Below are positions 6,734-58,868 of a stretch of DNA of 64,000 nt, piece after piece (position 1 is the stretch's first letter; each line of letters starts with the position of its first letter). The position numbers and the translations under genes are program-made. This DNA comes from Deltaproteobacteria bacterium GWB2_55_19 (lineage in GTDB: Bacteria > Desulfobacterota > GWC2-55-46). The DNA lies in contig MGPQ01000005.1 of the NCBI GenBank assembly GCA_001797465.1, positions 95,032-159,031 on the forward strand, given 5' to 3'. The notes beneath the pieces were generated by a model. It was given only the letters and a program-made list of their open reading frames with translations. It did not search any database and was not told the DNA's origin.

Positions 6734-6760
6734 TTGACAACCAGTTGAAGTTGTTATAAT
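6734..6760 (+). promoter_or_regulatory. sigma70-type promoter (TTGACA / 15-nt spacer / TATAAT) upstream of the riboswitch
   Basis: Both hexamers are exact matches to consensus. The spacer is slightly short at 15 nt. Confidence 0.4.
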
Positions 6761-6767
6761 CTCGTTT

Positions 6768-7035
6768 TAAATTATGGGTGGCCCGAGAGGGCCTTAAAAG
6801 GGAAGTACGGTGTAAAACCGTCGCGGACCCGCCGCTGTAACCGGGGATGAAAGCCGCAAAATGCCACTGTCTGTAAGGACGGGAAGGCGCGGCAAGTAGG
6901 ATGAACCGGGAGCCAGAAGACCTACCCTAATGTCATAATTTGTCTGCCTTCGTGGTTGGAGGCTAGGCTTATTTTCGAGGATGAAAAACGGCATCCCCGG
7001 ACCTATTGTCATGAGGTCCGGGGATTTTTTTATTT
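6768..7035 (+). promoter_or_regulatory. cobalamin (B12) riboswitch with intrinsic terminator expression platform
   Basis: Conserved cobalamin-riboswitch blocks are present: AAAAGGGAAGTACGGTG, CGGACCCGCCGCTGTAACCGG, the GCCACTG..GGGAAGG core, and a B12-box-like AGCCAGAAGACCTACC. The hairpin CCCCGGACC..GGTCCGGGG (6995-7023) is followed by a T-run. Confidence 0.8.
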
Positions 7036-7173: not shown

Positions 7174-7830
7174 ATGCATATCGAACCTGGATTTGTCTCA
7201 GCGGCAAAGGTGATGGGCGCGAACGCGGCAGTTGTTGGTCTTTTGATTTTCTATCTGAAGAGGTTGATCAGGCATCCGCTGGACATCTTCAAGGTCTTAT
7301 TGGCGGCTGTTTTCTTTTCGGTTTTCATGCAGAGCTTCCACATGAGCGTCGGACCGTCGGAACTGCACTTTATCGGAGCCATGTCGATATATCTGACCCT
7401 CGGTTTCATTCCGACGATGTTTGGGTTTGCCGTTGGTCTCCTATTGCAGGGACTCCTGTTTGAGCCGATGGACCTGCCACATCTCGCGGTGAATTCCTTG
7501 TCGCTAATAGTGCCGCTCATTACCGTTCACTATGTCGCAGGCAGAAAGCTTTTCGTCAAAGGCCTCAGGCAAAGGGTGTCATGGTCAACCATCTTGAAGC
7601 TTGACGGCATCTATTATGTGGGGGTCACATCAATGGTCGGTTTCTGGCTGCTCATCGGGGAAGTTGAGACGCCTTTTTCAGCCTGGATGGCCTTTGCAAG
7701 CTCGTATCTGGCGGTTGTGGCGGTAGAACCCTTTATCACTCTTTTGACTGTTAAAACACTAAAGAGATATGAGAACTCGCCTGCCGTAAAGAGGCTCTTC
7801 GTTGTTGATAAATTAAGTCTTGAGGCATAA
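7174..7830 (+). CDS. CbiM/NikM-like ECF-type S-component membrane protein (cobalt or corrinoid uptake candidate)
   Basis: A 218-aa multi-TM protein with the N-terminus MHIEPGF (Met-His start as in CbiM/NikM). It lies directly downstream of the B12 riboswitch. Confidence 0.5.
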   Translation: MHIEPGFVSAAKVMGANAAVVGLLIFYLKRLIRHPLDIFKVLLAAVFFSVFMQSFHMSVGPSELHFIGAMSIYLTLGFIPTMFGFAVGLLLQGLLFEPMDLPHLAVNSLSLIVPLITVHYVAGRKLFVKGLRQRVSWSTILKLDGIYYVGVTSMVGFWLLIGEVETPFSAWMAFASSYLAVVAVEPFITLLTVKTLKRYENSPAVKRLFVVDKLSLEA

Positions 7831-7962: not shown

Positions 7963-9411
7963 TCACATGTATTTCACTTCCCTGATGGTCGACAGATACC
8001 CTGTCTTACGCGCCTCGAGTTCCTGAAGGTTGAAATGCTCTCCCTTCATAGGGGTAAGGACGAACCTCTTTTTGCCCGCCGCCGCGACTATCTCAAATTT
8101 CCTCGCATAGTAGTTCTGTTGCAGTATGTCCGGGATATACCCCGTCTGCCGGAGTATCCCGGTCATACGGCGGAGCGCGACCTCCTTCTCGGATTCGTAT
8201 ATGACGACGAGATCGAGGGCCTTGGCCTCCCTGCACAACAGCTTCGCCTGTTCGTAAAGGAACCCTGGATTGCAGTAGACGAGCCCGCCGAAGGAGAACG
8301 ACTGCCATCTACCGTCCCTCAGGACGTTTATATTAGGCTCTAGGAGCTTCACAAGCCTTACGGGGTCCAGCCACTTTTCCATAGGCATGACGGACAACGC
8401 TCCGGCGAATTTCAAAAGCTCGAATTCACGGGCGCTCCTGTCGGCCTCCTTGAGCAGCACGGTAAACGGGTTAGTGCTTGGTATATGATGGTCCTTTACC
8501 GCCTTTATCACGTCATCAAACCACGATATCTGCGCATCCCCTGCGAGTTCCTTGAGCCTGGAGGCGCTTACGAAAGGGTGTTCATGGGTGTTATAGGCGC
8601 CGGAAGCCCAATACTCGGGTATCTTTCCCAGATCGTGCGCCAGCGCGGCGATCACGGCCCTGGGAATGTGGTTCTCGAAATCCGCATAAGTCTTCTCCAG
8701 AAGGCCGAATATCCGGTTCACAACTCCCGCAGTATGCTCCTTAAGAGAGACCCGGGAAAGGTTGTCCCTGACGCTATAGAGCTCCACGGCTTCCGAATCG
8801 TTCAATTTCGTCACCAACGAGGAGCAATGGCCGAAACGGTCAATCTCATGGATAAGCGCCTTTAAAAGGCCATCCGCCTTCTGAGCGGCGAATAAGCCCT
8901 CATAGGGTTTGAGCCTTTCGATAAGCCCAATGAGGGCCCCCTCCGAGAGCGGAGGAGCCTTGATAGCAACCGAGGAAGGAACCGCAGGAACAGGGGTTGA
9001 GGCTGGAGGTGAAACCATGACTTGAGCCGGTGTAGAGGCCTGTGCCTGAGAAGCCTTTTCCGTCGTCCCCTTTGCAGAAGAATTTTCACCAGCTTTCTTT
9101 TCCTCAACGGACCCGGTATCGCATTTATTCTTATAAAGCGACTCTACGCCCTCCGGGATATCGTTTATGGCTGTAACTTCATCGTTATATTTAAGCCACA
9201 CGCTGGCAAGCTCCGGAAGAGAAACATCTATCACGGGCTTTGGATTTTCACGGGCAGAGGAGAAGAAAGAAACAATGGCGAGGACGATAAGTAATATGCC
9301 TGCGGCGATCAAGAGTATCGGCACGGTTTCCATAGCGATCATTTGTAAACTACCATCCTTTAAAATTCGTATTTTTTGAAGAAGCGTTAGAATTATCGAC
9401 ATGCACAGCAC
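7963..9411 (-). CDS. membrane-anchored HD-domain phosphohydrolase
   Basis: An N-terminal TM is followed by a Ser/Thr/Pro-rich linker, then an HD motif (ALAHDLGKIPE ... HEHPF). Confidence 0.45.
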   Translation of the reverse strand: MLCMSIILTLLQKIRILKDGSLQMIAMETVPILLIAAGILLIVLAIVSFFSSARENPKPVIDVSLPELASVWLKYNDEVTAINDIPEGVESLYKNKCDTGSVEEKKAGENSSAKGTTEKASQAQASTPAQVMVSPPASTPVPAVPSSVAIKAPPLSEGALIGLIERLKPYEGLFAAQKADGLLKALIHEIDRFGHCSSLVTKLNDSEAVELYSVRDNLSRVSLKEHTAGVVNRIFGLLEKTYADFENHIPRAVIAALAHDLGKIPEYWASGAYNTHEHPFVSASRLKELAGDAQISWFDDVIKAVKDHHIPSTNPFTVLLKEADRSAREFELLKFAGALSVMPMEKWLDPVRLVKLLEPNINVLRDGRWQSFSFGGLVYCNPGFLYEQAKLLCREAKALDLVVIYESEKEVALRRMTGILRQTGYIPDILQQNYYARKFEIVAAAGKKRFVLTPMKGEHFNLQELEARKTGYLSTIREVKYM

Positions 9412-9439: not shown

Positions 9440-10153
9440 TCACTGCCATATCTTCTTGTACTTGTCTATCCTATTGGTCTTTATCTTTCCCATGACGACG
9501 GAAAGAGCCAGTATGAGTATCGAAAAAAGACTTACAATCGTCAGGAAATAAACACTCGGGATGAGCTGCTCGATGAACTTGGTCATCCACAGATAAGTCT
9601 TGTAGCCGGGACGTAGAAACTCAGGGAGCTTCCAGATCATGCGCAGGATGTGGTCAGGCGTTAGAAAATTAAAGTACAGGATGTGAACTACAATAAACAT
9701 AACGATGGTTGAGAGAACTATAACGGAAGCCATTCCGAAGGTAACGGCATAAATCGCCTTTCGGGTAATGTTTTTACAGTATGTTTTCCTCAGAATTGCA
9801 AAAACTAACAACGAAGTGACGAGACTCGACGAGACGGTAAATAGTAGGATAAATACTCTTTCGAAAGTCGAAGGCGAATATGAGCCGAAAACCGGGATAA
9901 TCCCATCATGCGCGGCGAACATAAACAGAGAGAGAATAAAGGTCGCAACGGAGCTGAAGGCGGAAACCCTGCCCCCTTCGATCCAATATGTACGCATCTT
10001 TTCAGTCGTAAGAACCTCTTCAGGTATGGACGAGCCTTCCTTTTCAGCGACCGAATACTGTTCTATATCGCTCAGAACCTGCAGAAGTCCTTTGGGTAAA
10101 TTCTTGGAATTCGTCGTTGTTGTAACAATTGCCCCATCCTTATCCCTTGCCAT
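9440..10153 (-). CDS. polytopic membrane protein, unknown function
   Basis: A 237-aa protein with 4-5 predicted TM helices. Confidence 0.35.
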   Translation of the reverse strand: MARDKDGAIVTTTTNSKNLPKGLLQVLSDIEQYSVAEKEGSSIPEEVLTTEKMRTYWIEGGRVSAFSSVATFILSLFMFAAHDGIIPVFGSYSPSTFERVFILLFTVSSSLVTSLLVFAILRKTYCKNITRKAIYAVTFGMASVIVLSTIVMFIVVHILYFNFLTPDHILRMIWKLPEFLRPGYKTYLWMTKFIEQLIPSVYFLTIVSLFSILILALSVVMGKIKTNRIDKYKKIWQ

Positions 10154-11115: not shown

Positions 11116-12261
11116 TTAATTCACCTCCAGAAACGGCAGTTTATTCCTTTCGAGTATGTGGTCGGGAACGCCGAAGTTCTTAGCGGCCAGCTTTACAACC
11201 TGGCTGTTTTTCCGCCAGAAGGCTTCTATGTCAGCAAACTTACTCCTGAATTTCGCAAGGCTTTTTACTTCATCGCCGAAAATCCAGTCAACATTCCTGC
11301 CTGCCGGAGAGGTATCCCTGTAGTAAAGATACAGTCTGCGTATATAATCCTCCGGATCCTGTAAATCGCGCCTGCCGCCTAGGCTCTTTAGGAGTTCGCT
11401 GAATATTTTAGCTATCCTGCCGCCTCCGTTCCCGTTAAGTTTCTCGGGTGGAGAGTTTTCCCAAAGCCCGTGATACCAGTCGATAAGACGCCTGATCGCC
11501 GGATCTGCCTGCTTCTCTTTCGCCTTTGCCTTCAACTTCGCATTCGTTTTTGCTTCACCGCTGTTTTTATCGAGCGCGAATGTATTTAAGTCTTTAGTAT
11601 TTATACTTGTCTTTGTATTTAATAATTTCGTGGCACCTCCAGCATGCCGGGATTCAGCAATATGACGCTTTTCAACTGGAATCGCCTCAGGCTGCCCGCT
11701 CTTCACAATCTTGTCAGCCTGTTTTCCACCTTCTTGTTTGTCGGTTTTCAGCAAGCTGGTGTTTTTCATGATGAATTGTCCCAGTTTGTTAGTTTCTAGG
11801 GTACTTGTCTGCTGGTTTTTGGCATTATGTTGATCTTCAAGAAGGATTCCCTCGGGCTGTTTAACTCCAACAATCTTGTCCGCTGATCTCCTCACACTTG
11901 TTTGCTGGTTATCAGCATTATGTTGATTTGAAAAGAAAATCCCGCTGAAGAACGCGTTTATCCTGTCCATGTTGAGCCTGTAGTAAAGCTTGCGTGGGCA
12001 ACCTGCGTATTTTTCTTCCAAGAACCCGAGATCCTTGAGCAACCTTCTCGAGGACTCCTGTTCGCACCTTGACAACCCTGTTTCCTCGCTCATCTCACGT
12101 TGTGTCTTATTAAGCCATCCGTCCGGAGTCTGCTCCTCCCCCTTCCAGTAAAGCATCTGACACAAAAAAATCGTGGCCGTAACGCTGCCCGTTAAAGGAA
12201 CCAGCCCCGGATAATAGGCGATAGGTTTCCCGATTCTCTGCAAATAGTCGGTCAGATGCAT
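11116..12261 (-). CDS. replication initiator (phage O / DnaD-like winged-helix N-domain); start taken at the ATG at 12261 with GAGGAG RBS
   Basis: The segment LTGSVTATIFLCQMLYWKG..GWLNKTQREMSEETGLSRCEQESSRRLLKDLGFL has the pattern of Phage_rep_O-type initiators. The longer 457-aa ORF in the table would overlap the upstream small gene by 200 nt. Confidence 0.4.
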   Translation of the reverse strand: MHLTDYLQRIGKPIAYYPGLVPLTGSVTATIFLCQMLYWKGEEQTPDGWLNKTQREMSEETGLSRCEQESSRRLLKDLGFLEEKYAGCPRKLYYRLNMDRINAFFSGIFFSNQHNADNQQTSVRRSADKIVGVKQPEGILLEDQHNAKNQQTSTLETNKLGQFIMKNTSLLKTDKQEGGKQADKIVKSGQPEAIPVEKRHIAESRHAGGATKLLNTKTSINTKDLNTFALDKNSGEAKTNAKLKAKAKEKQADPAIRRLIDWYHGLWENSPPEKLNGNGGGRIAKIFSELLKSLGGRRDLQDPEDYIRRLYLYYRDTSPAGRNVDWIFGDEVKSLAKFRSKFADIEAFWRKNSQVVKLAAKNFGVPDHILERNKLPFLEVN

Positions 12262-12287: not shown

Positions 12288-12521
12288 TCACTTCAACAAG
12301 GTTCCGCAATAAGTAAATAACAACGTCAAGATAAGCAGGATGATCGTCAGGCCGAACCTTCGAACAACAAGGGCATACATACTCATCACCAGAAGCGCCG
12401 AAGCAAAAATATGTGCCGTAAAGCCATAGAACAGGGTTGATATCAGATAGAACCACCATTCTCTGTAAGCTTCCGGCGTCACACCCCAATTTGTAGGATT
12501 AAAGTACTCAAAAGAAGACAT
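12288..12521 (-). CDS. small two-TM membrane protein
   Basis: A 77-aa hydrophobic protein. Coding status is uncertain. Confidence 0.3.
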   Translation of the reverse strand: MSSFEYFNPTNWGVTPEAYREWWFYLISTLFYGFTAHIFASALLVMSMYALVVRRFGLTIILLILTLLFTYCGTLLK

Positions 12522-12533
12522 TCATTATCCTCT

Positions 12534-13943
12534 TTAAATGCCGCTTATTTTCGGGAATTGCACCCGTATATACGGGTCATGAACCATGGCCGTCTCCCCT
12601 TTGAACATTATCCCCTCCTTCCGCATGTAGAACCATCGTGGGGCAAGAGCCACAACCCGTTCTTTCAGCACAAGCCTTTCTTCAACTTCCCTTAAAGACA
12701 CCCCCGTCTTCTCCCCCGAAAGATTCAGGATTGGCTGCTGCATCTTCTTGAGTGGCGTCGATTCCTCTACGAATTTCGAGGTCTTTTCATGGTTGACCCG
12801 CATGAAAACCCACGTATTGATGTTATCCAGGATGGACTGAGCCGCTTCCAAGCCTATCTCTTCCTCTATCTGCGCGATACTCTGGGTGAAGAAATGAAGC
12901 CACACCCCGGCGCCTCCGCCCTTGTTGAAAAGCTCCTGTATCCCCTTGTAAAGCACGTTATGCCCCTCGTCCACATAGACGCACAGAGGCGGATTGAGCG
13001 TCCTGCCGGAAGCGAAAAACCGTCCTACCGTTGACTGGATCATCGAAAGAAGCACCCTCCCGATTATGTGAGCGGTCCGGCGCGACAGAAGGCTTCCTGT
13101 ATTGCATACGAGTATCACCCCCCTGTTCCCTTCCTCGAACCTCTTTACAAATTCATTGGTGTAGGCCTTGCCTATGATGCGTCCTGTGGTGGATGACGTG
13201 AGAGCCGTAAGGGTGGTCCTCAACGACGAAGACACTTTTGCGAAAAAATCGGTCGGAGAAGCTATGATCTGTGCTATATCGGCGCATACCTCCTGGGCGA
13301 CCGTAGCCACGGCATGGTCAGTATGGTCCTTCAACATCGAGATGGTCTCCCTGAACTGCTCAAGGCTCTCGCGGCTGGACCTCTGTTTAATGTCGTAAAA
13401 ACTGAGCCTCGGCTTTTCGCCCTTGGCCTTCGCCAGCGCAATAAGCCCCTCAACGATTACGGTGCTTATCTCGCTAGCTACGTTAATGAAGTATTCCTCC
13501 TTGGCCCGGATGCCGGAAACCACGTGGTCCACAAGTTCATCAGGCATGTAAAAGTGCGCGAGCGGGTCTATCCGCAGGGAGTAATCGGGATATATAGGAG
13601 TGACAAGCATAAGGTCATTTAAACGGCCGGATTCGACTGCGGACTGAACAACCATGGAAAATAGGTCCTGGTCGCCTTTCGGGTCTATGACTATTACGTT
13701 TCTCCCCCCCTTGATATCCTGCGTAATAAGGTGAGTTAAAAGTCTGGTCTTCCCTATCCTCGTGGTGCCGAAACAACCGAAATGACCGGCCCTTTCACGT
13801 GCACTGAGATAAAGAGGATGAGGTTTTATCTCCGAACGCAGACTTTTAACGAGAGACACACCCCTGCCAAGACATATACGACCGCCATCATTGGTTGTAC
13901 TGCCCTTCCTGTTGATATTGAACAACGTATCGATATCTGACAT
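12534..13943 (-). CDS. AAA-like (HerA/TraG/VirB4-like DUF87) P-loop ATPase
   Basis: A Walker A motif (FGTTRIGKTRL) and a VIVIDPKGD motif typical of HerA/VirB4/T4CP ATPases are present. The start ATG overlaps the upstream stop as TGATG, suggesting translational coupling. Confidence 0.5.
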   Translation of the reverse strand: MSDIDTLFNINRKGSTTNDGGRICLGRGVSLVKSLRSEIKPHPLYLSARERAGHFGCFGTTRIGKTRLLTHLITQDIKGGRNVIVIDPKGDQDLFSMVVQSAVESGRLNDLMLVTPIYPDYSLRIDPLAHFYMPDELVDHVVSGIRAKEEYFINVASEISTVIVEGLIALAKAKGEKPRLSFYDIKQRSSRESLEQFRETISMLKDHTDHAVATVAQEVCADIAQIIASPTDFFAKVSSSLRTTLTALTSSTTGRIIGKAYTNEFVKRFEEGNRGVILVCNTGSLLSRRTAHIIGRVLLSMIQSTVGRFFASGRTLNPPLCVYVDEGHNVLYKGIQELFNKGGGAGVWLHFFTQSIAQIEEEIGLEAAQSILDNINTWVFMRVNHEKTSKFVEESTPLKKMQQPILNLSGEKTGVSLREVEERLVLKERVVALAPRWFYMRKEGIMFKGETAMVHDPYIRVQFPKISGI

Positions 13944-14353
13944 CAGAACCTGGCCTCCGTTTTTTTGACTTCCGAGGGCGGACATTCAGCTCTCAATATG
14001 GCCCCCCAGACGCTGACCTCTACATTGTATTTCTCACCGGACATACCCTTGACAATCCCCGAGAACCCCTCGTAACGGCCACCGACTATCCTTACCGGAG
14101 TCCCCGGAGGGTAAATCTCCTTTTTTATGAGCTCGGAGATCCGGCCGGCATCCTTGAGAAACGTTGTGTAGCTCCCTTTGAAATACTCGATCCGCGCTGC
14201 GGTTACGAACTCCTCCGGCAGAAATCGTGAAGGGTCCACGTTCACAAACAGATAATCGGGCAGCTTGGTCTCATAGACCTTTAGCTCCTCGACCTTCTTA
14301 AGGATGTTGAGTATCAGTTTTATCTTCTTCGGTGCCGCGTGAATCAGATACAT
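13943..14353 (-). CDS. NusG-family (KOW-domain) specialised transcription elongation/antitermination factor candidate
   Basis: The C-terminal GTPVRIVGGRYEGFSGIVKGMSGEKYNVEVSVWGAILRAECPPSEVKK aligns with the NusG KOW motif (G..VR...G.F..F.G.V......K..V.VS..G....VE). An NGN-like N-terminal segment is present. Confidence 0.5.
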   Translation of the reverse strand: MYLIHAAPKKIKLILNILKKVEELKVYETKLPDYLFVNVDPSRFLPEEFVTAARIEYFKGSYTTFLKDAGRISELIKKEIYPPGTPVRIVGGRYEGFSGIVKGMSGEKYNVEVSVWGAILRAECPPSEVKKTEARF

Positions 14354-14969
14354 GTTTTCCGTTCCTTGAAAATTTATTCAACAGGAAATCCAGCCTCCTG
14401 TTGAGGTATTCGAACCTCGCAGGGCGCATGCCCTCGAAGGTCTTTACTCCCAACTTTCCCTTATAAGACGTTTCTTTGGAAAGAATCGCCTCCGCCTCTT
14501 CACCAGTCAGTTCCGCAAGCCTCTTGAGCTTCTCCTCGACGGCGTTCCTTAAAGAGTCGTATTCCTCTCCCATGCCGAGTGAAAGCCCGGACCTTCCCAC
14601 CAGGTCGTATATCCTCATGGCTATGAATTTGTCGGACTTCATATGTATGGTAAATGAGATGCTTGTTTTGCGTGAAATAATAGACCTCATGATGCCTCTG
14701 AACACTACTCCTTCCAGATTGAAGACCAGCATCGTCCTGTCCGTGCCGACTTCGATTTTCTTTAGAAAATCCGAGATTTCCTTGCGCGGAGTGGGATTCT
14801 TGAGCGATAAGGACAAACATCCGTTCCCTGAATGCGTGTAACTGACAAAATTGACCGGAAAATTCGTATACATCTTGGTCTCCATCGCTGGCTCCTGATA
14901 CTTGTATATTACCGACCGAGACATCTTCGGCAAGGGAGGAAAATAATGATTTCCAACAAAAAAAGGCAT
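14298..14969 (-). CDS. hypothetical protein
   Basis: A 223-aa ORF in the co-oriented block with no recognisable motif. Confidence 0.35.
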   Translation of the reverse strand: MPFFVGNHYFPPLPKMSRSVIYKYQEPAMETKMYTNFPVNFVSYTHSGNGCLSLSLKNPTPRKEISDFLKKIEVGTDRTMLVFNLEGVVFRGIMRSIISRKTSISFTIHMKSDKFIAMRIYDLVGRSGLSLGMGEEYDSLRNAVEEKLKRLAELTGEEAEAILSKETSYKGKLGVKTFEGMRPARFEYLNRRLDFLLNKFSRNGKHVSDSRGTEEDKTDTQHP

Positions 14970-15006
14970 ACCCGAGGGTATGCCTTTTAAGGTTAGTTTC
15001 CCTTAT

Positions 15007-15869: not shown

Positions 15870-17915
15870 TTAACACTTAGAAAAACCGCACGAGTAACAC
15901 TTCGTGCAGCCTTCCTCCATAACCAGCTCCCCTCCGCAATCCGGACAGGACAGGGACTTGAACCTGACCTCTCTGCCAAGGCTTTCCAGCGCCTTCTGCA
16001 GCCCCTTGTTGACGGCAAGGAGCGGAGAAGTTATATCCCCGTACTGCAGATAGCTCTTGTAAAGCTGCTCCAGCACCTCATCATACGGCACGCCATGCCT
16101 TAGAGACTGCGAGATAAGCCGCGCTATGCACTCGACCCACGGTCTCGAAGCGCCCTGTGGAGGAACAGTTACAAACACCTCCTTAGGCTCTCCATCCAGA
16201 TGACTTACGTGGATGTAATACCTGCCCTCCTTAGTATCAACCTTGACGCGTTTTTCATCGATGATATCCGGAAGTACGCCGTCTCCATGAGCAGGGCTCT
16301 CCGAGGCGGCCTTCCTGATGACCTGTTTTACGCGGCTTCCGTCCCTATAGACAGTTATCCCCTTGCAACCGAGAGAGTACGCCGAAAGGAATGCCTCTTC
16401 GACATCTTCTTTCGATGCCTCAATCGGCATGTTTACAGTCTTGGATACCGCGTTGTCCGTATTCTTCTGAAAGGCCGCCTGATGTTTTATGTGCCATCCA
16501 ACAGCCACCTGTGAAGCCGTAACGAACCATTCAGGAAGAAATGGCAGGTCTTTCACCTCGGCGAAAAGCGGATGTTCCCAGGTGAACGTTTCGTCCACCT
16601 GCTCGCTTTCGCCCCTCCAGGCGAAGACCGGCTCTATACCCGAGGAACAACCAGCTATGATGGATATCGAACCCGTAGGAGCTATAGTTGTAAGGGTCGC
16701 GTTCCGGACCTTTATCCCCCTTCTTTCCCAAGTGCTCCCTTTGTAGTTGGGGAAGTTCCCCCTGGAATTAGCGAGGTCCGAGCTGGCTGAAACGGCCTTT
16801 TCATGAATGAAACTCATGACCTTTTCCGCGAGTTTGACCGCCTCCATTGAGTTGTATCTGATCCTTAGCTCCAGAAGCATGTCCGCCCACCCCATGACTC
16901 CGATGCCGATCTTGCGATTCAATTTGGTAATCTTCTCTATCTGAGGGATCGGATAGCGGTTCATGTCGATGACGTTATCGAGGAAGTGGACCGCCTTCTT
17001 CACCGTATCCCCAAGTCTGGACCAGTCGACCGCTCCGTCTTTTGTCATCAATGAGAGGTTGATGGAGCCTAAGTTGCACGACTCGTACGGCAGGAGCGGC
17101 TGCTCCCCGCAGGGATTCGTTGCCTCTATCTTTCCGGTGTGCGGGGTGGGGTTGTGCTCATTGATCCTATCAATAAAGACTACCCCTGGCTCCCCGTTCT
17201 TCCATGCCTGCTCCACCACCCTCTCGAAGACATCCTTCGCCCTGATCTCTCCTACTGCCTTTCCGGTCCGCGGATTTACCAGCTGATATGTTGAATCATT
17301 TTTCAAGGCTTCCATGAAGCCGTCCGTCACGGCTACCGACAGATTGAAGTTGGAGATAGCTCCTTCCATGTCCTTGCAGGAGACGAACTCCATTATGTCC
17401 GGATGGTCTACACGGAGGATGCCCATGTTCGCACCCCTTCTCGTTCCACCCTGCTTGACCTGCTCAGTGGAGGCGTCATAGACCTTCATAAATGAAATCG
17501 GTCCGGACGCGACCCCCATCGTGCTTTTTACGATGTCCCCCGCAGGCCTGAGCCTTGAGAACGAAAACCCCGTGCCTCCTCCGCTCTGATGGACGAATGC
17601 CGCGTTTTTGAGGGTCTCATAGATGCCCATAAGATCGTCCTCAACCGGCAGGACGAAACAGGCAGAAAGCTGCTGAAGCTCCCTCCCGGCATTCATGAGC
17701 GTCGGGGAATTGGGCAGGAACTCAAGACTCGACATCATTTCGTAGAACTCACGAGCCGTTGCATCGCAGTCGGTCCCGGGGTCATAACACTTATCGCCCA
17801 GTGCTACGTTTATGGCTACGCGCCTGAACATCTCCTCCGGTGTCTCCACGACATTGCCGCCAGCGTCTTTTTTTAGATAACGCTTCTCTAAAACCTTAAG
17901 CGCATTACCGTTCAT
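15870..17915 (-). CDS. nrdJ: class II adenosylcobalamin-dependent ribonucleotide reductase
   Basis: A 681-aa protein. The N-terminus NALKVLEKRYL and the catalytic core are NrdJ-like. A C-terminal zinc ribbon CPDCGG..CTKCYSCG is present. Confidence 0.85.
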   Translation of the reverse strand: MNGNALKVLEKRYLKKDAGGNVVETPEEMFRRVAINVALGDKCYDPGTDCDATAREFYEMMSSLEFLPNSPTLMNAGRELQQLSACFVLPVEDDLMGIYETLKNAAFVHQSGGGTGFSFSRLRPAGDIVKSTMGVASGPISFMKVYDASTEQVKQGGTRRGANMGILRVDHPDIMEFVSCKDMEGAISNFNLSVAVTDGFMEALKNDSTYQLVNPRTGKAVGEIRAKDVFERVVEQAWKNGEPGVVFIDRINEHNPTPHTGKIEATNPCGEQPLLPYESCNLGSINLSLMTKDGAVDWSRLGDTVKKAVHFLDNVIDMNRYPIPQIEKITKLNRKIGIGVMGWADMLLELRIRYNSMEAVKLAEKVMSFIHEKAVSASSDLANSRGNFPNYKGSTWERRGIKVRNATLTTIAPTGSISIIAGCSSGIEPVFAWRGESEQVDETFTWEHPLFAEVKDLPFLPEWFVTASQVAVGWHIKHQAAFQKNTDNAVSKTVNMPIEASKEDVEEAFLSAYSLGCKGITVYRDGSRVKQVIRKAASESPAHGDGVLPDIIDEKRVKVDTKEGRYYIHVSHLDGEPKEVFVTVPPQGASRPWVECIARLISQSLRHGVPYDEVLEQLYKSYLQYGDITSPLLAVNKGLQKALESLGREVRFKSLSCPDCGGELVMEEGCTKCYSCGFSKC

Positions 17916-19033: not shown

Positions 19034-19222
19034 ACGAAACTCTCCTTTTGTTTTTTGATAGAGATGCCTATGTCGCCTCTTCCCTTACTCCGAAAAGAGG
19101 CACATACTTTTGAGCCTTCATGGCCTCCCTGTACATCTCCTCTTCCATCTCCAAACGCACATCTTCGACCTCGATCTTCCCTGTCTCCATTTACTCCGCC
19201 TCCTTTTTTGTTTTTTCCGAAA

Positions 19223-19327
19223 TAAAAAAAAGCCTTTTAAAGGGATGCCGCCAGAAAAAGGCTGTTCCCTGTAAAAAGCTTTATGTTCGTTGGCCTACTG
19301 AAAAAACTATCTACATGTATATTACTT
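19223..19327 (-). repeat. conserved intergenic element, copy 1 (degenerate hairpin + 45-nt core)
   Basis: The core GCTTTATGTTCGTTGGCCTACTGAAAAAACTATCTACATGTATATTAC is shared with 8 other copies. Confidence 0.7.
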
Positions 19328-20011: not shown

Positions 20012-20170
20012 AAAAAAGCCCTCTTAAAAGAGGGTGTTGCCTTTAAAAAAAACTCTTTACCGACCGGGCCAGCCGATCCTTTGTAAAGAGTCCTTGAAAA
20101 GACAATACCGCTCGTAAAAGAGGGCTATGTTCGTGTGCCTACTGAAAAAACTATCTACTTACATATTACC
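20012..20170 (-). repeat. conserved intergenic element, copy 2 (core at 20121-20170; leader hairpin/terminator at 20015-20035)
   Basis: The core is GGCTATGTTCGTGTGCCTACTGAAAAAACTATCTACTTACATATTACC. The hairpin CCCTC-TTAAAA-GAGGG has a U-run on the minus strand. Confidence 0.6.
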
Positions 20171-22529: not shown

Positions 22530-22587
22530 TTCCTCCTCCTTTCATAGGGCTTGTAAACCTGAATTTCATAATCTCCTCTCCTTTTCT

Positions 22588-22671
22588 GAAATAAAAAAAG
22601 CCACAGGAAAAGATTCCCGTGGCTTTATGTTCGTGAGACCTACTGAAATAACTACATGTCTGTATATTACC
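22588..22671 (-). repeat. conserved intergenic element, copy 3
   Basis: It has the hairpin GCCACAGGAAAAGATTCCCGTGGC plus the core. A partial second hairpin copy (22686-22707) lies just upstream on the minus strand. Confidence 0.75.
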
Positions 22672-22725
22672 TCTGAAATAAAAAAGGCCACAGGAACCAC
22701 CATGGCCTCGATGTTTTTAAAACTC

Positions 22726-27139: not shown

Positions 27140-27202
27140 TTTCTACCTCCTTTTTTTATGCGTCCGACTTTTGACATATAGTCCTTTACCATCCTTTTTT
27201 TT

Positions 27203-27285
27203 GAATAAAAAAAAGCCACAGGAAAAGCATTCCTATGGCTTTTGTTCGTTGATCTACTGAAAAAACTACATGTCTATATATTACC
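27203..27285 (-). repeat. conserved intergenic element, copy 4
   Basis: It has the hairpin AGCCACAGGAAAAGCATTCCTATGGCT plus the core TTTGTTCGTTGATCTACTGAAAAAACTACATGTCTATATATTACC. Confidence 0.75.
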
Positions 27286-33292: not shown

Positions 33293-33377
33293 TTAACAAC
33301 CCCCTTTTCTTTTACAATTTTTAATGCCGTTAAAATAAAACCTCGCCTTACGTTTTCTCCATAGTCCTCCTTTTTTT

Positions 33378-33458
33378 GAAATAAAAAAAAGCCACAGGAA
33401 AATTCCTATGGCTTTTTATTCGTTCACCTACTGAAAAAACTACATGTCTATATATTAC
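33378..33458 (-). repeat. conserved intergenic element, copy 5
   Basis: It has the hairpin GCCACAGGAAAATTCCTATGGC plus the core. A 4-codon mini-ORF (MEKT) follows the hairpin on the minus strand. Confidence 0.75.
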
Positions 33459-33472
33459 TTCAGACTACAACT

Positions 33473-34588
33473 TCATCTCTCTTCCGGGTAAAGCACCGTA
33501 ACCACCCATCCTCCCGGATGGCGCTCAGGGAAACCCCATATCTCGCCTGTAGGATGGGATACTTTTATGATCCCGGAAATCCCCTCGTCAAACTTCTTTT
33601 TCACTTTGCTCATAATCTCGTCGACATCGGGCAGGGCCGCAACAGTTTGAGTCGCTACGTAAGTCGCTTTCCGCGGTTTGCTCTTTTTGTCTTGATACTC
33701 CGGCGGGACAGGACATCCCACCAGGTTAAGGAACCTTAACATGAACTCTTCGCTCCAATCGCCGCAGTTGCCGCAATACGCCATGCCCGACACCTCATCA
33801 CATGAGGACAGATACTGCCTTGCCTCTTCGACTGTCTGAGGGTCCTTACTATAGCAATTCGCACAGACTGGACAGATCGGATGACCGCAGGAAGGGCATT
33901 CAAGGACTTCGGACCTCAACACAGGGACCTTATATATAGCCCTCCCGCCGTGTATATCGCAATAAAATCCGGTTACTCGGATAAGCTTCCCTACAGCCTC
34001 TCTTTCGAGCTTCTTGATTTCCATGCCCAGCTCAAGACTCTGTTCCTCCCCTTCCTTCATTTTCTCACGGAGCGCCAAGACCCTGTTCGCAACATCAACA
34101 GGGATTTCAGCCTTATCGCTTTCGGTGCCTGGTACATACTTCCCGTTGGCCATGAGGGGATATTTTACAAGCCCCATTTGCAGAGCGACCTCAATGTCGT
34201 CTTTATGGTCAAAATGATCCCAGAGAACCCCGGTCTGTGCGTCAGAACAAGCCCTATCAAACGCCCAGCTCTCAATGTATTCATTTTCCTCAATCCCAGG
34301 ACATTCATTGGAAAACAGCCACTCCTTTATCTCGTTGTCACTCTTGCCGGAAAGCTCCGGGTGACCTTTTACAATGCCGTCAAGGTCGTCTTTATCAAGC
34401 TCGTTCCAAAGACATTCATTGATAAAGGCATCTCTGCATTCTCCGCCCTGACACGCCTCCTTTTCATAAAACTTGACTTGCTCCGCTACTGATTCATCAA
34501 AAGACTTCTGGTCCAGCGAATCCCACAACGTCTTCCCTTCTCTCCCTGTGAGTTCATAGCAATACTTTACGCCTTCCGCCATAGACAC
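33473..34588 (-). CDS. Cys-rich hypothetical protein (multiple CxxC zinc-binding clusters)
   Basis: CPSCGHPICPVCANC...CGNCGDW clusters are present. It has its own intergenic element (copy 6) upstream. Confidence 0.4.
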   Translation of the reverse strand: MSMAEGVKYCYELTGREGKTLWDSLDQKSFDESVAEQVKFYEKEACQGGECRDAFINECLWNELDKDDLDGIVKGHPELSGKSDNEIKEWLFSNECPGIEENEYIESWAFDRACSDAQTGVLWDHFDHKDDIEVALQMGLVKYPLMANGKYVPGTESDKAEIPVDVANRVLALREKMKEGEEQSLELGMEIKKLEREAVGKLIRVTGFYCDIHGGRAIYKVPVLRSEVLECPSCGHPICPVCANCYSKDPQTVEEARQYLSSCDEVSGMAYCGNCGDWSEEFMLRFLNLVGCPVPPEYQDKKSKPRKATYVATQTVAALPDVDEIMSKVKKKFDEGISGIIKVSHPTGEIWGFPERHPGGWVVTVLYPEER

Positions 34589-34597
34589 CTCCGTTTT

Positions 34598-34682
34598 TGA
34601 AATAAAAAAAAGCCACAGGAAAATTCCCGTGGCTTTTATGTTCGTGAGACCTACTGAAAAAACTACATGCCTATATATTACC
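34598..34682 (-). repeat. conserved intergenic element, copy 6
   Basis: It has the hairpin AGCCACAGGAAAATTCCCGTGGCT plus the core. The stop codon of the E1 gene lies inside the core. Confidence 0.75.
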
Positions 34683-35453
34683 TTTGATTCTCTTCCAGGC
34701 TTCGGGGTCGACCGGCAGTGGGTTCACTCTCATCGACTTGAGGTCGATAAAGCACCCGTGATTCTCAAGATGCCCCTGCCTGAAGCCTGTCCAGAGCAAC
34801 TGCACGGCCCAGGATGCGACAATCGTGTTTACCAGCAGGTCCTGATGTTCCAGAGCCACTGCAAGCGAACACGAGGGGCCCTGGGCCTTTTCCTTAACTT
34901 TCGTAAGATCATAAAGTTCGTCTACAGACGGCAAAACTGCTACAGCGTCTCTCCCTGGCGGCTGCGGTATATCCTTGAGAGACCCCAGTATCACCTGGCC
35001 AGTATCCCTTGTATTCCCAGTGTCGAGCCAGTAAAGACAGTGCGAGTCCAAACGGGCTGCCCTCCCGATAACCGTACGAGCCCTGGCCGAATCCACGGCG
35101 GATATCAGGATTGACGGTCGCACAGTATCGTCCGACCTGGAGCCATCGAAGGCGAAGGGACAGGCCTTCCAGGAGAACCCCATGAACTGGTTTATTTTAG
35201 TTACCGAGACCACCGCCTTGTTCCGTCCGACATCGAGCGGGGAGAAGTTCTGCCGCGCGATATTGGCTTCGCTAACATTGTCGTCGTCAAAAACCGACAC
35301 ATTCAGGCCGGGATGCCTTAACTGACATAGGGCGTAATGGAGCCTTGCCAGCCCGGTAAGTATCTGGCTACCGGTGCCGCCGCAACCTACAAGCGCGACA
35401 TAAACAGGTCCATCGGCTGCGGTTATCTCTTTATGCAGATAGTGTTTTTTCAT
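34671..35453 (-). CDS. ThiF/MoeB-family E1-like ubiquitin-activating enzyme homologue
   Basis: The nucleotide-binding Gly loop YVALVGCGGTGSQI is present. The 260-aa size fits a minimal E1. Confidence 0.75.
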   Translation of the reverse strand: MKKHYLHKEITAADGPVYVALVGCGGTGSQILTGLARLHYALCQLRHPGLNVSVFDDDNVSEANIARQNFSPLDVGRNKAVVSVTKINQFMGFSWKACPFAFDGSRSDDTVRPSILISAVDSARARTVIGRAARLDSHCLYWLDTGNTRDTGQVILGSLKDIPQPPGRDAVAVLPSVDELYDLTKVKEKAQGPSCSLAVALEHQDLLVNTIVASWAVQLLWTGFRQGHLENHGCFIDLKSMRVNPLPVDPEAWKRIKGNI

Positions 35454-36045
35454 CTAGAACACCCCTAAAAGTGAAAAAATGGCCTTCTATGCACAACCTT
35501 ACCTTAAGATTCGGTTGCATATTTTTGTCGAAGCTTATGACCCCTGAAAAACGTATCCCTCCCATGTCGTCATGGTCATCGACTCCGCTGAAGGCGGTCA
35601 TATCGAATGGGTGGCTGTGGAGGTCGACGACAAGATGACCTCCGTTAAGCTCCGGATACTCGTAGCTCACCGAGGAAGACGACTCTTTTATTATTGTCGG
35701 TTCCACGAAACGATACCCGTCAAGAGCGCCCCATACTATCCACCCAGCCCACTCAAGCCCCTTTCTAGCTTTATTCCTGGCAACCTCGATACTACGGTCC
35801 AGCAGAGACAGGGGGAGCTGTCCACTCTCAAGACGGTAAATATATTCCGCCTCCCCGTATGGCAGCGACCGTAGTGACTTCCATAAAGGAAGCCTGAAAT
35901 GCCCCCACGGGACCTTTGCCTCGACCCACAGCCCGTCAAAAGCCATCAGATACCTGTATCCCCCTTCAATTGCAGGGAGCTCGGAATACCTCGGCACCAT
36001 GACGACCGGACAGGCTTCCTGTATGATCCTGTCCTTAATATCCAT
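35431..36045 (-). CDS. JAB/MPN (JAMM) metalloprotease, deubiquitinase-like
   Basis: There is an exact JAMM motif H-S-H-x7-S-xx-D in VVDLHSHPFDMTAFSGVDDHDD. Confidence 0.75.
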   Translation of the reverse strand: MDIKDRIIQEACPVVMVPRYSELPAIEGGYRYLMAFDGLWVEAKVPWGHFRLPLWKSLRSLPYGEAEYIYRLESGQLPLSLLDRSIEVARNKARKGLEWAGWIVWGALDGYRFVEPTIIKESSSSVSYEYPELNGGHLVVDLHSHPFDMTAFSGVDDHDDMGGIRFSGVISFDKNMQPNLKVRLCIEGHFFTFRGVLDEKTLSA

Positions 36046-36748: not shown

Positions 36749-36751
36749 AAT

Positions 36752-37933: not shown

Positions 37934-37937
37934 ATAT

Positions 37938-38456: not shown

Positions 38457-38478
38457 AGATTTTTTGTAGACGAACGCA

Positions 38479-39221: not shown

Positions 39222-39244
39222 CCACCTCCTTTTTGATTTTCTTC

Positions 39245-39328
39245 GAAATAAAAAAAGCCACAGGAAAAAACTTCCCATGGCTTTATGTTCGTGATACCTA
39301 CTGAAAAAACTACATATCTATATATTAT
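39245..39328 (-). repeat. conserved intergenic element, copy 7
   Basis: It has the hairpin AGCCACAGGAAAAAACTTCCCATGGCT plus the core. Confidence 0.75.
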
Positions 39329-39336
39329 CTCTTTTA

Positions 39337-41805: not shown

Positions 41806-41957
41806 CTCAAAAGCCGATCCGGGTGGTTATAACAAAACCCATAAACAGTAAACCTATCAGAATGCACCCGGCTGCAAAAATCTCAAGAGTTAGCAATGCC
41901 AAATTACGACCTCCTTTCTTTATATTTAAGTTATTTGCCGCCTTCTTTTTGTTTTCA

Positions 41958-42041
41958 TGAAATAAAAAAAGCCACAGGAAAAGTTCCCGTGGCTTTATGT
42001 TCGTAAGACCTACTGAAAAAATTACATGTCTATATATTACC
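41958..42041 (-). repeat. conserved intergenic element, copy 8
   Basis: It has the hairpin GCCACAGGAAAAGTTCCCGTGGC plus the core. A possible 31-codon hydrophobic small ORF (TTG start after AAGGAGG) follows on the minus strand at about 41917-41822. Confidence 0.75.
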
Positions 42042-45729: not shown

Positions 45730-45758
45730 ACTCCTTACACCTCCTTTTTGTGGTTTTT

Positions 45759-45842
45759 AAAATAAAAAAAGCCACAAGAACGAATTCTCGTGGCTTTTGT
45801 TCGTAAAGGCCTACTGAAAAAATTACATACTCATATATTACC
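45759..45842 (-). repeat. conserved intergenic element, copy 9 (most upstream)
   Basis: It has the hairpin GCCACAAGAACGAATTCTCGTGGC plus the core TTTTGTTCGTAAAGGCCTACTGAAAAAATTACATACTCATATATTACC. Confidence 0.7.
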
Positions 45843-46120: not shown

Positions 46121-46174
46121 TACGAAGGTTGGATCGGGAATTGTACTAATTTTGTATTAGAATTGGCGGCTGTC
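46121..46174 (+). repeat. direct repeat DR-L (left boundary of the metal-resistance island)
   Basis: GGGAATTGTACTAATTTTGTATTAGAATTGGCGGCTGTC is nearly identical to the copy at 58695-58734. Confidence 0.6.
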
Positions 46175-58682: not shown

Positions 58683-58734
58683 AAGTAATTGAAGAATGAG
58701 GTTTGGGAAATTGTACTAATTTTGTATTCGAATT
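58683..58734 (+). repeat. direct repeat DR-R (right boundary of the metal-resistance island)
   Basis: GGGAAATTGTACTAATTTTGTATTCGAATTGGCGGCAGTC matches the copy at 46136-46174 at 37 of 39 positions. Confidence 0.6.
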
Positions 58735-58868
58735 GGCGGCAGTCCTAAGACTCCAGAGACTCTAAAGACTACAAAGAATGCCACCAAACCCCCTATTATA
58801 TAAGGCAAAACGGGAAATCAAGCCGAATATCAGGGAGTTGCGTTTTTGGGCTTAATTGCCCTCAAAAT

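What the first reader, a model, noticed from the sequence alone, without database searches (positions are those of the whole stretch)
13943..14353. Element-encoded NusG-like KOW protein: candidate processive antiterminator for the hairpin-punctuated 38-kb co-directional block
Seen in sequence: the C-terminal 50 residues match the NusG/RfaH KOW motif, preceded by an NGN-like region. Established knowledge: specialised NusG paralogues (RfaH, LoaP, TaA, plasmid ActX) are recruited at specific leader elements and suppress termination across long operons, including conjugative tra operons. Inference: the block has terminator-like hairpins at every unit boundary, yet all genes are co-oriented. A dedicated antiterminator recruited by the conserved core would explain that layout. 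The gene's stop overlaps the start of the downstream AAA ATPase (TGATG), indicating coupled expression.
Basis: partly seen in the sequence, partly recalled or inferred. Interest (0 to 1): 0.7.

Follow-up and report, generated by a model that had tools for sequence, protein, structure and literature searches.

The report
Compact NusG-like protein on conjugative element
A 136-residue protein encoded next to the DNA-transfer coupling ATPase of a conjugative element is probably a stripped-down relative of the transcription factor NusG, and it may let RNA polymerase read through nine near-identical "promoter, conserved box, terminator" cassettes placed in front of the element's operons; that function is not tested.

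Summary
The ORF is real: 13943-14353, minus strand, 136 aa. It belongs to a small, metagenome-only family of 58 clusters, almost all 125-146 aa.

**KOW domain.** The C-terminal KOW is certain at family level. It is of NusG/Spt5 type, and it keeps NusG's I-F-G loop as V-W-G.

**N-terminal domain.** An NGN domain is probable, not proven.
- For: the beta-alpha-beta-beta-alpha-beta topology fits. The motif LPDYLFVNVDP matches RfaH FPNYLFVEFDP. hhalign of the family against RfaH gives 95.7% over both domains.
- Against: no Pfam NGN hit in 44 members. The N-terminal profile alone finds no NusG in the PDB. Fold searches return generic ferredoxin-like folds.

**Neighbours.** The TGATG overlap is confirmed. 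The downstream "AAA ATPase" is a TraD-like type IV coupling protein. This gene stays linked to the family in divergent elements.

**Hairpins.** Strong terminators occur only between about 15 and 46 kb. Nine of them belong to a conserved cassette: GGTAATAT, 17 nt, TTTTTTCAGTAGG, hairpin, T-run, RBS. The cassette recurs in elements whose KOW proteins are only 33-40% identical. The KOW gene's own operon has the GGTAATAT motif but no box and no terminator.

**Verdict.** This is most likely a new compact variant of the element-encoded NusG paralogues. The antiterminator role at the cassettes is plausible and untested.

The parts
13943..14353 (-). Gene for the 136-aa compact NusG/Spt5-like protein
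   Evidence: ORF. 58 family representatives in the exhaustive search. hhalign against the RfaH family 95.7%. AF2 mean pLDDT 83.7.
14120..14353 (-). N-terminal domain (residues 1-78): beta-alpha-beta-beta-alpha-beta, a candidate minimal NGN that lacks the bacterial beta-hairpin insertion
13961..14110 (-). KOW domain (residues 82-131) with a NusG-like V115-W116-G117 loop
14298..14885 (-). Upstream 195-aa gene that overlaps the KOW gene by 56 nt; first gene of the operon; conserved in the closer relatives; weak HTH-like match only
   Evidence: Gene calls in L001-L006. blastp to L001, L002 and L010 neighbours. NCBIfam E 0.005.
14905..14913 (-). GGTAATATA promoter-like motif in front of the KOW operon, with no box and no terminator after it
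   Evidence: The same motif lies upstream of KOW genes in L012, L013, L015 and L123.
14961..14988 (-). Strong intrinsic terminator after ssb; it closes the preceding unit just before the KOW operon
   Evidence: 12-bp stem plus T-run.
12534..13943 (-). TraD/VirD4-like type IV coupling protein (469 aa, no N-terminal membrane domain); its start overlaps the KOW stop codon (TGATG)
12288..12521 (-). 77-aa membrane protein that travels with the coupling protein (TraJ-like by position; inference)
   Evidence: Homologues next to the coupling protein in L001, L002, L012 and L015.
9440..10153 (-). 237-aa protein of unknown family, syntenic with the KOW gene and the coupling protein in divergent elements
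   Evidence: blastp to L001, L012, L014, L015 and L017 neighbours. No Pfam or NCBIfam hit.
45741..45842 (-). Leader cassette copy (GGTAATAT / TTTTTTCAGTAGG / hairpin / T-run), upstream of parB
   Evidence: Covariance model R1, 102 bits; alignment.
41941..42041 (-). Leader cassette copy
   Evidence: R1, 116.5 bits.
39227..39329 (-). Leader cassette copy, upstream of the PRTRC genes
   Evidence: R1, 114 bits.
34582..34682 (-). Leader cassette copy; the stop codon of the upstream ThiF-like gene lies inside its first 12 nt
   Evidence: R1, 109.5 bits; fold z -3.55.
33361..33459 (-). Leader cassette copy
   Evidence: R1, 108.7 bits.
27185..27285 (-). Leader cassette copy
   Evidence: R1, 108 bits.
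22570..22671 (-). Leader cassette copy, upstream of the SNF2 helicase gene; a further terminator (22684-22709) precedes it
   Evidence: R1, 118 bits.
20078..20170 (-). Divergent cassette copy: same promoter-like motif and box, different hairpins
   Evidence: R1, 37 bits; sequence.
19202..19326 (-). Divergent cassette copy: same motif and box, with a longer hairpin of different sequence
   Evidence: R1, 64 bits; fold.

Best explanation
The gene encodes a minimal member of the NusG/Spt5 class of transcription elongation factors. It is carried by an integrative or conjugative element of uncultured Deltaproteobacteria.

Proposed mechanism:
1. The small N-terminal alpha/beta domain binds the RNA polymerase clamp, as an NGN domain does. 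This step is inferred.
2. The C-terminal KOW barrel has a NusG-like hydrophobic-aromatic-Gly loop. It contacts a partner such as ribosomal protein S10. This step is inferred.
3. The gene is transcribed from a GGTAATAT-type promoter that is not followed by a terminator. It is translated together with the TraD-like coupling protein.
4. The product then makes RNA polymerase resistant to the intrinsic terminators in at least nine near-identical leader cassettes (GGTAATAT, 17 nt, TTTTTTCAGTAGG, about 12 nt, 13-14-bp hairpin, T7-8, RBS). These cassettes precede the maintenance, replication and anti-defence operons at 19-46 kb.
5. The conserved box sits at a fixed distance downstream of the promoter-like motif. 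It would be the loading or pause site, analogous to ops for RfaH/PrfaH or the leader element of LoaP.

What is shown: the gene, the family, the KOW domain, the domain architecture, the cassettes and their terminator structure, and co-occurrence of cassettes and family in divergent elements.

What is inferred: RNA polymerase binding, recruitment at the box, and read-through.
For: KOW of NusG/Spt5 type:
- Family profile against PDB NusG KOW, E 1e-12 to 1e-10.
- Pfam KOW in 36 of 44 members.

NGN-like N-domain:
- Topology beta-alpha-beta-beta-alpha-beta plus helices, pLDDT 88.
- hhalign of the family against the RfaH family: 95.7%, E 8.8e-9, 131 collinear columns.
- hhalign of the N-domain alone: 73%, P 3e-5. 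Only 2 of 300 column shuffles reach that score.
- 9 of 17 identities over the NGN hallmark strand. F36 aligns with RfaH F56, which is needed for RNAP binding (PMC7593976).

KOW loop:
- (V/I/L)-(W/F/L)-G in 43 of 44 members. It aligns with NusG I164-F165-G166 (PMC7593976).

Cassettes:
- Nine copies, all on the coding strand and all between co-directional genes. Each ends 10-25 nt before the next RBS, so downstream genes can only be transcribed through the hairpin.
- Hairpin plus T-run is a canonical intrinsic terminator. Fold z-scores are -2.6 to -4.6.
- The hairpin sequence differs between lineages while the structure is kept.
- Cassettes with the same GGTAATAY and T-rich/AGTAG box occur in L015 and L012, whose KOW proteins are 33-40% identical to this one. 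In both loci a cassette lies directly beside the KOW gene.
- The GGTAATAY motif alone precedes KOW genes or operons in the window, L012, L013, L015 and L123.

Precedent:
- Plasmid-borne NusG paralogues in tra operons are proposed antiterminators (PMC7593976).
- IncX PrfaH needs an ops-like site just downstream of a promoter (PMC11880322, abstract).
- LoaP reads through intrinsic terminators (PMC7819879).
Against: - No family member matches Pfam NusG-NGN at E<=1.
- NCBIfam RfaH, NusG and UpxY scores are 16-21 bits against cutoffs of 100-145.
- The N-terminal profile alone finds no NusG, RfaH or Spt5 in the PDB.
- Foldseek gives nothing below E 0.1; RfaH is at rank 12.
- The RfaH reference profile used for hhalign is narrow, made of sequences at least 77% identical.
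- No cassette lies in the gene's own operon or in the type IV secretion region.
- The link between protein and cassette is co-occurrence on the same element lineage. It rests on few independent lineages: the window type, the L001 type, L015 and L012.
- The gene that most consistently accompanies the family is the coupling protein, not a cassette.
- No experimental data exist.
Confidence: 0.45

Rival explanations
1. It is a NusG-like elongation factor, but its targets are not the cassettes. It acts on its own long operon: the DNA-processing genes and the downstream type IV secretion genes. It would suppress Rho-dependent termination or silencing, or couple transcription to translation, as RfaH does for the F tra operon and as proposed for ActX/PrfaH. 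Another factor controls the cassettes, or they are leaky terminators.
For: - The gene sits inside the coupling-protein operon and is translationally coupled to it.
- Specialised NusG paralogues are typically adjacent to their target operons (PMC7819879, PMC7593976).
- About 14 kb of co-directional transfer genes follow without strong terminators.
- The KOW loop is NusG-like.
Against: - In L012 and L015 the gene is convergent with the coupling-protein operon rather than part of it. In both it is divergent from a cassette-led operon.
- No ops-like element is enriched: 4 near-matches against 3 expected, none exact.
- This reading does not explain why the cassettes exist or why they co-occur with the family.
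Confidence: 0.2
2. It is not a transcription factor. The small ferredoxin-like domain and the SH3/KOW-like barrel form an accessory subunit of the DNA-transfer machinery. It would be, for example, an adaptor between the relaxosome or DNA and the TraD-like coupling protein, which here lacks its usual N-terminal membrane domain.
For: - Synteny with the coupling protein, a 77-94-aa membrane protein and a protein of about 240 aa is conserved across elements whose KOW proteins are only 21-40% identical to this one.
- The stop and start codons overlap.
- Fold searches cannot tell the N-domain from generic ferredoxin-like nucleic-acid-binding folds.
- No Pfam NGN hit.
Against: - The KOW sequence is specifically of NusG/Spt5 type, down to the I-F-G-like loop.
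- The N-domain aligns collinearly with RfaH NGN, including the FPxYLFV-DP strand.
- The two-domain order and size equal those of archaeal Spt5.
- From my own knowledge, no coupling-protein accessory with this architecture has been described.
Confidence: 0.2
3. The cassettes are ordinary operon boundaries or insulators, or are regulated by an RNA or a different protein. Their presence near the gene is a coincidence of shared ancestry of the element backbone.
For: - All lineages with cassettes are related elements, so co-occurrence may only reflect common descent.
- Several other element proteins have no known function.
Against: - The order is promoter-like motif, then box, then terminator, then RBS. 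This is the reverse of a normal terminator-then-promoter boundary and leaves no room for a promoter after the hairpin.
- The motif, the box and the hairpin structure are conserved even where the KOW proteins have diverged to 33% identity.
Confidence: 0.1

Closest known systems
RfaH and the plasmid-borne RfaH-like paralogues (ActX/PrfaH of IncX plasmids)
   Same: - Two-domain NGN-like plus KOW protein encoded on a conjugative element among transfer genes.
- Best profile-profile match (95.7%), with a shared FPxYLFV-DP strand and a Phe at the RfaH F56 position.
- PrfaH uses a site just downstream of a promoter (PMC11880322).
   Different: - 136 aa against 162 aa; about 18 residues of the NGN beta-hairpin region are missing.
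- Scores are far below the RfaH model cutoffs.
- No ops element.
- The KOW loop is NusG-like (V-W-G), not RfaH-like (L-I-N).
- AF2 predicts a beta-barrel KOW and no fixed domain contact (pTM 0.48), so there is no sign of autoinhibition.
- RfaH is reported to be poor against intrinsic terminators (PMC7819879).
LoaP (Bacillus NusG paralogue)
   Same: - It works the way proposed here: a dedicated NusG paralogue encoded next to its targets.
- It promotes read-through of intrinsic hairpin terminators placed in 5' leader regions (PMC7819879).
   Different: - No detectable sequence relationship closer than to NusG in general.
- LoaP controls two antibiotic operons. Here at least nine identical cassettes are spread over one mobile element, and the candidate recognition box is promoter-proximal and single-stranded-looking rather than a leader hairpin.
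Archaeal Spt5 (for example M. jannaschii, 147 aa)
   Same: - Same size and the same compact NGN without the bacterial hairpin insertion.
   Different: - Bacterial mobile-element context.
- No Spt4 partner identified.
- No significant sequence match of the N-domain.
Lambdoid phage Q antitermination (promoter, proximal pause site, terminator, late genes)
   Same: The layout of the cassette: promoter-like motif, a conserved element at about +12 to +19, and a terminator before the genes.
   Different: - Q is unrelated in sequence and fold.
- Phage Q units occur once per genome, not nine times.
- The transcription start and any pause in the cassette are not mapped.

Membership tests
NusG/Spt5 superfamily | C-terminal KOW domain of NusG/Spt5 type | tested here: met
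NusG/Spt5 superfamily | N-terminal NGN domain recognised by the curated profiles (Pfam NusG PF02357 / Spt5-NGN) | tested here: not met
   0 of 44 members hit at E<=1. The N-terminal profile finds no NusG, RfaH or Spt5 in the PDB at E<=10.
NusG/Spt5 superfamily | NGN fold and homology by more sensitive comparison | tested here: inconclusive
NusG/Spt5 superfamily | Binding to the RNA polymerase beta' clamp helices and beta gate loop | not testable with these tools
   Indirect only: the hydrophobic beta3 motif is conserved (Y34 in 37 of 44 members, position 36 always hydrophobic), and F36 aligns with RfaH F56 (PMC7593976).
RfaH (NCBIfam TIGR01955 / NF006534) | Score above the curated equivalog cutoff | tested here: not met
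   18.0 and 15.8 bits against cutoffs of 124 and 144.5.
RfaH | ops element GGCGGTAGnnTG in target leaders | tested here: not met
   No exact match. 4 one-mismatch matches against 3.0 expected, none in a leader.
RfaH | Loss of the NusG Rho-contact loop (L-I-N instead of I-F-G) | tested here: not met
   V115-W116-G117 in this protein. (V/I/L)-(W/F/L)-G in 43 of 44 members.
UpxY (NF033644) | Score above the curated cutoff | tested here: not met
   20.5 bits against a cutoff of 100; KOW part only.
Housekeeping NusG (TIGR00922) | Score above the cutoff; secE-nusG-rplK context | tested here: not met
   17.4 bits against 135.7. The context is a conjugative element.
KOW-only ribosomal proteins (uL24 / eL26) | KOW closest to L24/L26 and no extra N-terminal domain | tested here: not met
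   L24/L26 matches are E 3e-4 or weaker, against 1e-12 for NusG. A folded 78-residue N-domain is present.
Type IV coupling protein (downstream neighbour) | TraG-D_C / TrwB domains above Pfam thresholds | tested here: met
   TraG-D_C 47.7 bits (cutoff 22), TrwB_AAD_bind 35.9 bits (cutoff 20.5). NCBIfam SXT_TraD E 5e-52, below its full-length cutoff because the N-terminal third is absent.

The most novel reading that the evidence does not exclude
The element runs a regulon-wide processive antitermination circuit of a kind not yet described for conjugative elements. A single 136-aa 'minimal NusG' is the size of archaeal Spt5, is invisible to the standard NGN profiles, and keeps NusG's S10/Rho-contact loop. 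It would be loaded at a promoter-proximal T-rich/CAGTAGG box and unlock nine or more identical promoter-box-terminator cassettes. These cassettes gate every maintenance, replication and anti-defence operon. The factor itself is made together with the DNA-transfer coupling protein, which would tie expression of the whole element to the transfer state.
Probability: 0.3. Interest if true: 0.75.

Novelty: new variant of a known kind. Interest (0 to 1): 0.55.

Why it matters
Specialised NusG paralogues on plasmids are known or suspected to switch on transfer genes. All described ones are full-size and recognisable with standard profiles.

If this family is a working NGN-KOW factor, three things follow:
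- It defines roughly the smallest bacterial NusG-like protein, and shows that the bacterial NGN hairpin is dispensable.
- It extends element-encoded antitermination to uncultured Deltaproteobacteria.
- It offers a compact, modular pair of factor and 100-nt cassette, with many natural cassette variants. Such a pair could be tested directly for how NusG-like proteins are recruited and how they defeat intrinsic terminators.

If instead the protein is an accessory of the coupling protein, it would be a new component of MOB_H-like DNA-transfer systems.

Tried and rejected
- Word-index homologue search: only 5 close relatives. The exhaustive profile search was needed.
- tblastn against the annotated plasmid and phage collections: no match. 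No annotated relative exists there.
- N-terminal profile against PDB sequences: only noise.
- Foldseek on the PDB with the N-domain: nothing significant. The afdb50 library was not available.
- A homologue search with E. coli RfaH returned only sequences at least 77% identical. The reference profile for hhalign is therefore narrow.
- The search for related loci with the 44-sequence alignment failed for lack of conserved stretches. With the 6-sequence alignment it gave three Deltaproteobacteria or unclassified MAG contigs.
- Rfam: no family covers the cassette, only sub-threshold terminator-driven matches.
- ops search: not enriched.
- A sigma-70 consensus scan does not call a promoter at most cassettes, because there is no conserved -35. 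Only the 27-kb copy is called, TTGCCA-16-TAATAT.
- KOW-only ribosomal protein, ProQ/FinO-like and CarD-like readings were rejected. The KOW is NusG-type and C-terminal, and the N-domain is alpha/beta.
- The last three contig look-ups gave contigs too short to judge cassette co-occurrence.
Full report
**1. What is at the coordinates**

The finding is an ORF on the minus strand, 13943-14353, 136 aa, with an ATG start. Its stop codon overlaps the start of the next gene by one base (TGATG).

The next gene is a TraD/VirD4-type type IV coupling protein of 469 aa. It hits Pfam TraG-D_C at 1.9e-12, TrwB_AAD_bind at 5e-9 and NCBIfam SXT_TraD at 5e-52, and the usual N-terminal membrane third is missing.

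The gene upstream (14298-14885, 195 aa) overlaps the ORF by 56 nt. It is called in all related contigs.

**2. Context**

Almost every gene from about 46 kb down to 0.4 kb is on the minus strand, and together they make up a conjugative element. In order of transcription the genes are:
- ParB, ArdC and an SbcCD-like pair
- a PRTRC cassette (ubiquitin-like, E2, JAB, ThiF)
- a DnaN-like clamp, an RDF-like protein, a primase, a methyltransferase and an SNF2 helicase
- a class II ribonucleotide reductase and SSB
- the 195-aa gene, the KOW gene, and TraD-like plus a 77-aa membrane protein
- a DnaC/IstB-like ATPase, a 237-aa protein and an HD-domain protein
- DsbA, SLT, OmpA, TraE, TraK and TraB/TrbI

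Heavy-metal efflux genes lie beyond 46 kb. Close relatives of the protein sit in Deltaproteobacteria metagenome-assembled genomes.

**3. The protein family**

The word-index search found five relatives. The exhaustive profile search found 58 cluster representatives at E<=1e-3 among 1.84 billion proteins, nearly all 125-146 aa. The annotated plasmid and phage collections hold nothing similar. The family is small, compact and metagenome-only.

**4. KOW domain**

- For the single sequence the Pfam KOW score is under threshold.
- Across the family, 36 of 44 members hit KOW, best E 1.8e-8.
- The family profile hits NusG KOW domains in the PDB at 1e-12 to 1e-10 and Spt5 KOWs at 1e-15. Ribosomal L24/L26 reach only 3e-4 or weaker.
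- The loop V115-W116-G117 aligns with NusG I164-F165-G166. It is (V/I/L)-(W/F/L)-G in 43 of 44 members. In NusG that loop makes key contacts with Rho, and RfaH has L-I-N there instead (PMC7593976).

**5. N-terminal domain**

Against an NGN domain:
- No member hits Pfam NusG-NGN at E<=1.
- The N-terminal profile alone finds no NusG, RfaH or Spt5 in the PDB.
- Foldseek gives nothing better than E 0.1, with RfaH at rank 12.

For an NGN domain:
- The confident model (pLDDT 88) has the NGN order of elements: beta1, alpha1, beta2, beta3, alpha2, beta4, helix.
- NCBIfam RfaH aligns residues 20-108 with RfaH 40-137 (E 0.002).
- hhalign of the family alignment against an RfaH-family alignment gives 95.7%, E 8.8e-9, over 131 collinear columns.
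- hhalign of the N-domain alone against the RfaH NGN gives 73%, P 3e-5. Only 2 of 300 column-shuffled controls reach that score, and the reversed profile scores 0.4%.
- The aligned core is VYETKLPDYLFVNVDPS against RfaH VSEPLFPNYLFVEFDPE. This is the hallmark beta3 strand of NGN domains, and F36 sits opposite RfaH F56, which is required for RNAP binding (PMC7593976).

The alignment needs one deletion of about 18 residues, at the bacterial NGN hairpin. Without that hairpin the protein is the size of archaeal Spt5, whose NGN domains are also the best NGN structural matches.

My reading: this is a strongly diverged, minimal NGN. I put that at about 0.75, but it is not proven.

**6. What travels with the gene**

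In the close lineages the order 195-aa gene, KOW gene, TraD-like gene, small membrane protein is fixed.

In distant members (21-40% identity) the coupling protein is still within three genes (L012, L015, L017). In L012 and L015 the KOW gene is convergent with that operon.

A local all-against-all blastp defines a conserved set:
- the coupling protein
- a membrane protein of 77-94 aa
- a protein of about 240 aa (window 9440-10153, no known family)
- the KOW protein

This is the main argument for a role in DNA transfer itself.

**7. The hairpins**

Terminator-like sites are in excess only at 20-40 kb, 45 against 21.4 +/- 4.4 expected. They are not in excess at 1-20 kb, 21 against 20.7. No strong minus-strand terminator lies below 14.9 kb.

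Nine of the strong hairpins belong to one conserved cassette. All copies are on the coding strand, at 19.2, 20.1, 22.6, 27.2, 33.4, 34.6, 39.3, 42.0 and 45.8 kb. The cassette reads:

GGTAATATAtagacatgTAGTTTTTTCAGTAGG, n4, ACGAACAtAAAG, then a 13-14-bp hairpin, T7-8, and 10-25 nt later the RBS of the next gene.

Its properties:
- The two copies at 19 and 20 kb keep the motif and the box but have different hairpins.
- The order is promoter-like motif, box, terminator, RBS. This is the reverse of a normal operon boundary and leaves no room for a promoter after the hairpin. Downstream genes must be transcribed through the hairpin.
- The box starts 25 nt after the G of GTAATAT in all nine copies.
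- Rfam has no family for the cassette.
- The RfaH ops element is not enriched.

**8. Cassette and family together**

A covariance model of the cassette finds:
- two copies in L001 and two in L113, where the KOW protein is about 79% identical (L113 also encodes the KOW gene)
- two copies in L015 and one in L012, where the KOW proteins are only 33-40% identical (E 0.0015, 0.01 and 0.02 in a 49-kb search)

The distant copies have the same GGTAATAY head and the same T-rich/AGTAG box, and a terminator hairpin of entirely different sequence. In both L015 and L012 one cassette lies directly beside the KOW gene, leading the divergent operon.

A metagenome scan for the head-plus-box pattern gave 103 stretches. 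The model confirms cassettes in about a dozen of them, often 2-4 per contig.

The GGTAATAY motif also stands alone, with no box and no terminator, in front of the KOW gene or its operon:
- window 14913-14905, just after the strong ssb terminator at 14988-14961
- L015, 40 nt upstream of the ATG
- L012 and L013, 14 nt upstream
- L123, 32 nt upstream

This is the pattern expected if the factor is made without needing itself while the other operons are gated. It is also compatible with any other regulator of the cassettes.

**9. Comparison with known systems**

- Plasmid-borne NusG paralogues inside tra operons have been noted and proposed to be antiterminators (PMC7593976).
- IncX PrfaH is required for conjugation and uses an ops-like site downstream of a promoter (PMC11880322, abstract).
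- LoaP reads through intrinsic terminators, whereas RfaH is poor at that (PMC7819879).

In how it works, the closest analogue is LoaP. The cassette layout resembles the lambdoid Q system. In sequence the closest relative is RfaH, but the protein fails every RfaH-specific criterion: the model cutoff, ops, and the loss of the Rho loop.

I file it as a new compact variant of the element-encoded NusG-paralogue kind. The NGN membership feature is formally unmet by curated profiles and inconclusive by sensitive methods.

**10. Verdict**

| Reading | Confidence |
|---|---|
| Minimal NusG-like antiterminator acting on the cassettes | 0.45 |
| NusG-like factor acting on its own transfer operon | 0.20 |
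| Accessory subunit of the coupling protein | 0.20 |
| Cassettes unrelated to the protein | 0.10 |

Interest is 0.55. The finding is a plausible and directly testable pair of factor and cassette, in a known conceptual frame. No step of the mechanism has been demonstrated.

Noticed in passing
window 6758-6943 (+) and ORF 7174-7830 (+): A full-length cobalamin riboswitch (Rfam RF00174, 121.7 bits) lies on the opposite strand, upstream of a 218-aa ORF. It sits between the HD-domain gene and the type IV secretion genes. Related contigs L001 and L006 have a CbiM gene at the corresponding place.
   Followed up: partly
window 12288-13943 (-): The TraD-like coupling protein lacks the N-terminal membrane domain. 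It is always followed by a separate membrane protein of 77-94 aa. This looks like a split coupling protein, as in the TraG/TraJ or TraD/TraJ pairs of MOB_H systems (comparison from my own knowledge).
   Followed up: partly
window 7963-9411 (-): A 482-aa HD-domain protein (Pfam HD 9e-8, weak Cas3-HD/Cas10-like matches) sits at the end of the DNA-processing gene block. It could be a MOB_H-type relaxase, but no relaxase model was matched.
   Followed up: no
window 34671-38967 (-): A complete PRTRC-type cassette (prokaryotic ubiquitin-like, E2 family D, JAB, ThiF, PRTRC_E) lies on the element. Cassette copies stand at 39.3 kb, ahead of it, and at 34.6 kb, where the cassette's first bases overlap the stop codon of the ThiF-like gene.
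   Followed up: no
window 15870-17915 (-): A class II-like ribonucleotide reductase with a TSCPD domain is carried by the conjugative element. It is conserved in L001 and L003-L005.
   Followed up: no
L003 1-1328 and L004 1-1327: In near-identical copies of the element, a group II intron reverse transcriptase (RVT_N, RVT_1, GIIM, HNH) lies just upstream of the cassette that precedes the SNF2 helicase gene. The window has a 213-aa ORF and a DUF6094 methyltransferase gene at that place.
   Followed up: no
window 46136-46174 and 58706-58744: A 39-nt direct repeat, 92% identical (GGGAATTGTACTAATTTTGTATTAGAATTGGCGGCTGTC), brackets the heavy-metal block (cytochrome c, P-type ATPase, EamA, CusABC-like genes). 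It could be shared operators or cargo boundaries.
   Followed up: no
window 60446-60579 and 60755-60888: A 134-nt direct repeat, 77% identical, with copies 309 nt apart. Not examined.
   Followed up: no
L012 685-701, L013 1375-1391: The GGTAATAC motif lies only 14 nt before the ATG of the KOW gene. If it is a -10 element, the mRNA would be leaderless or nearly so.
   Followed up: no
window 11732-11927 (+ strand coordinates): Three copies of a 32-nt repeat, spaced 71 and 93 nt apart, lie inside the 457-aa ORF downstream of the coupling protein (family D8). This ORF varies in length between related contigs (382 or 448 aa).
   Followed up: no
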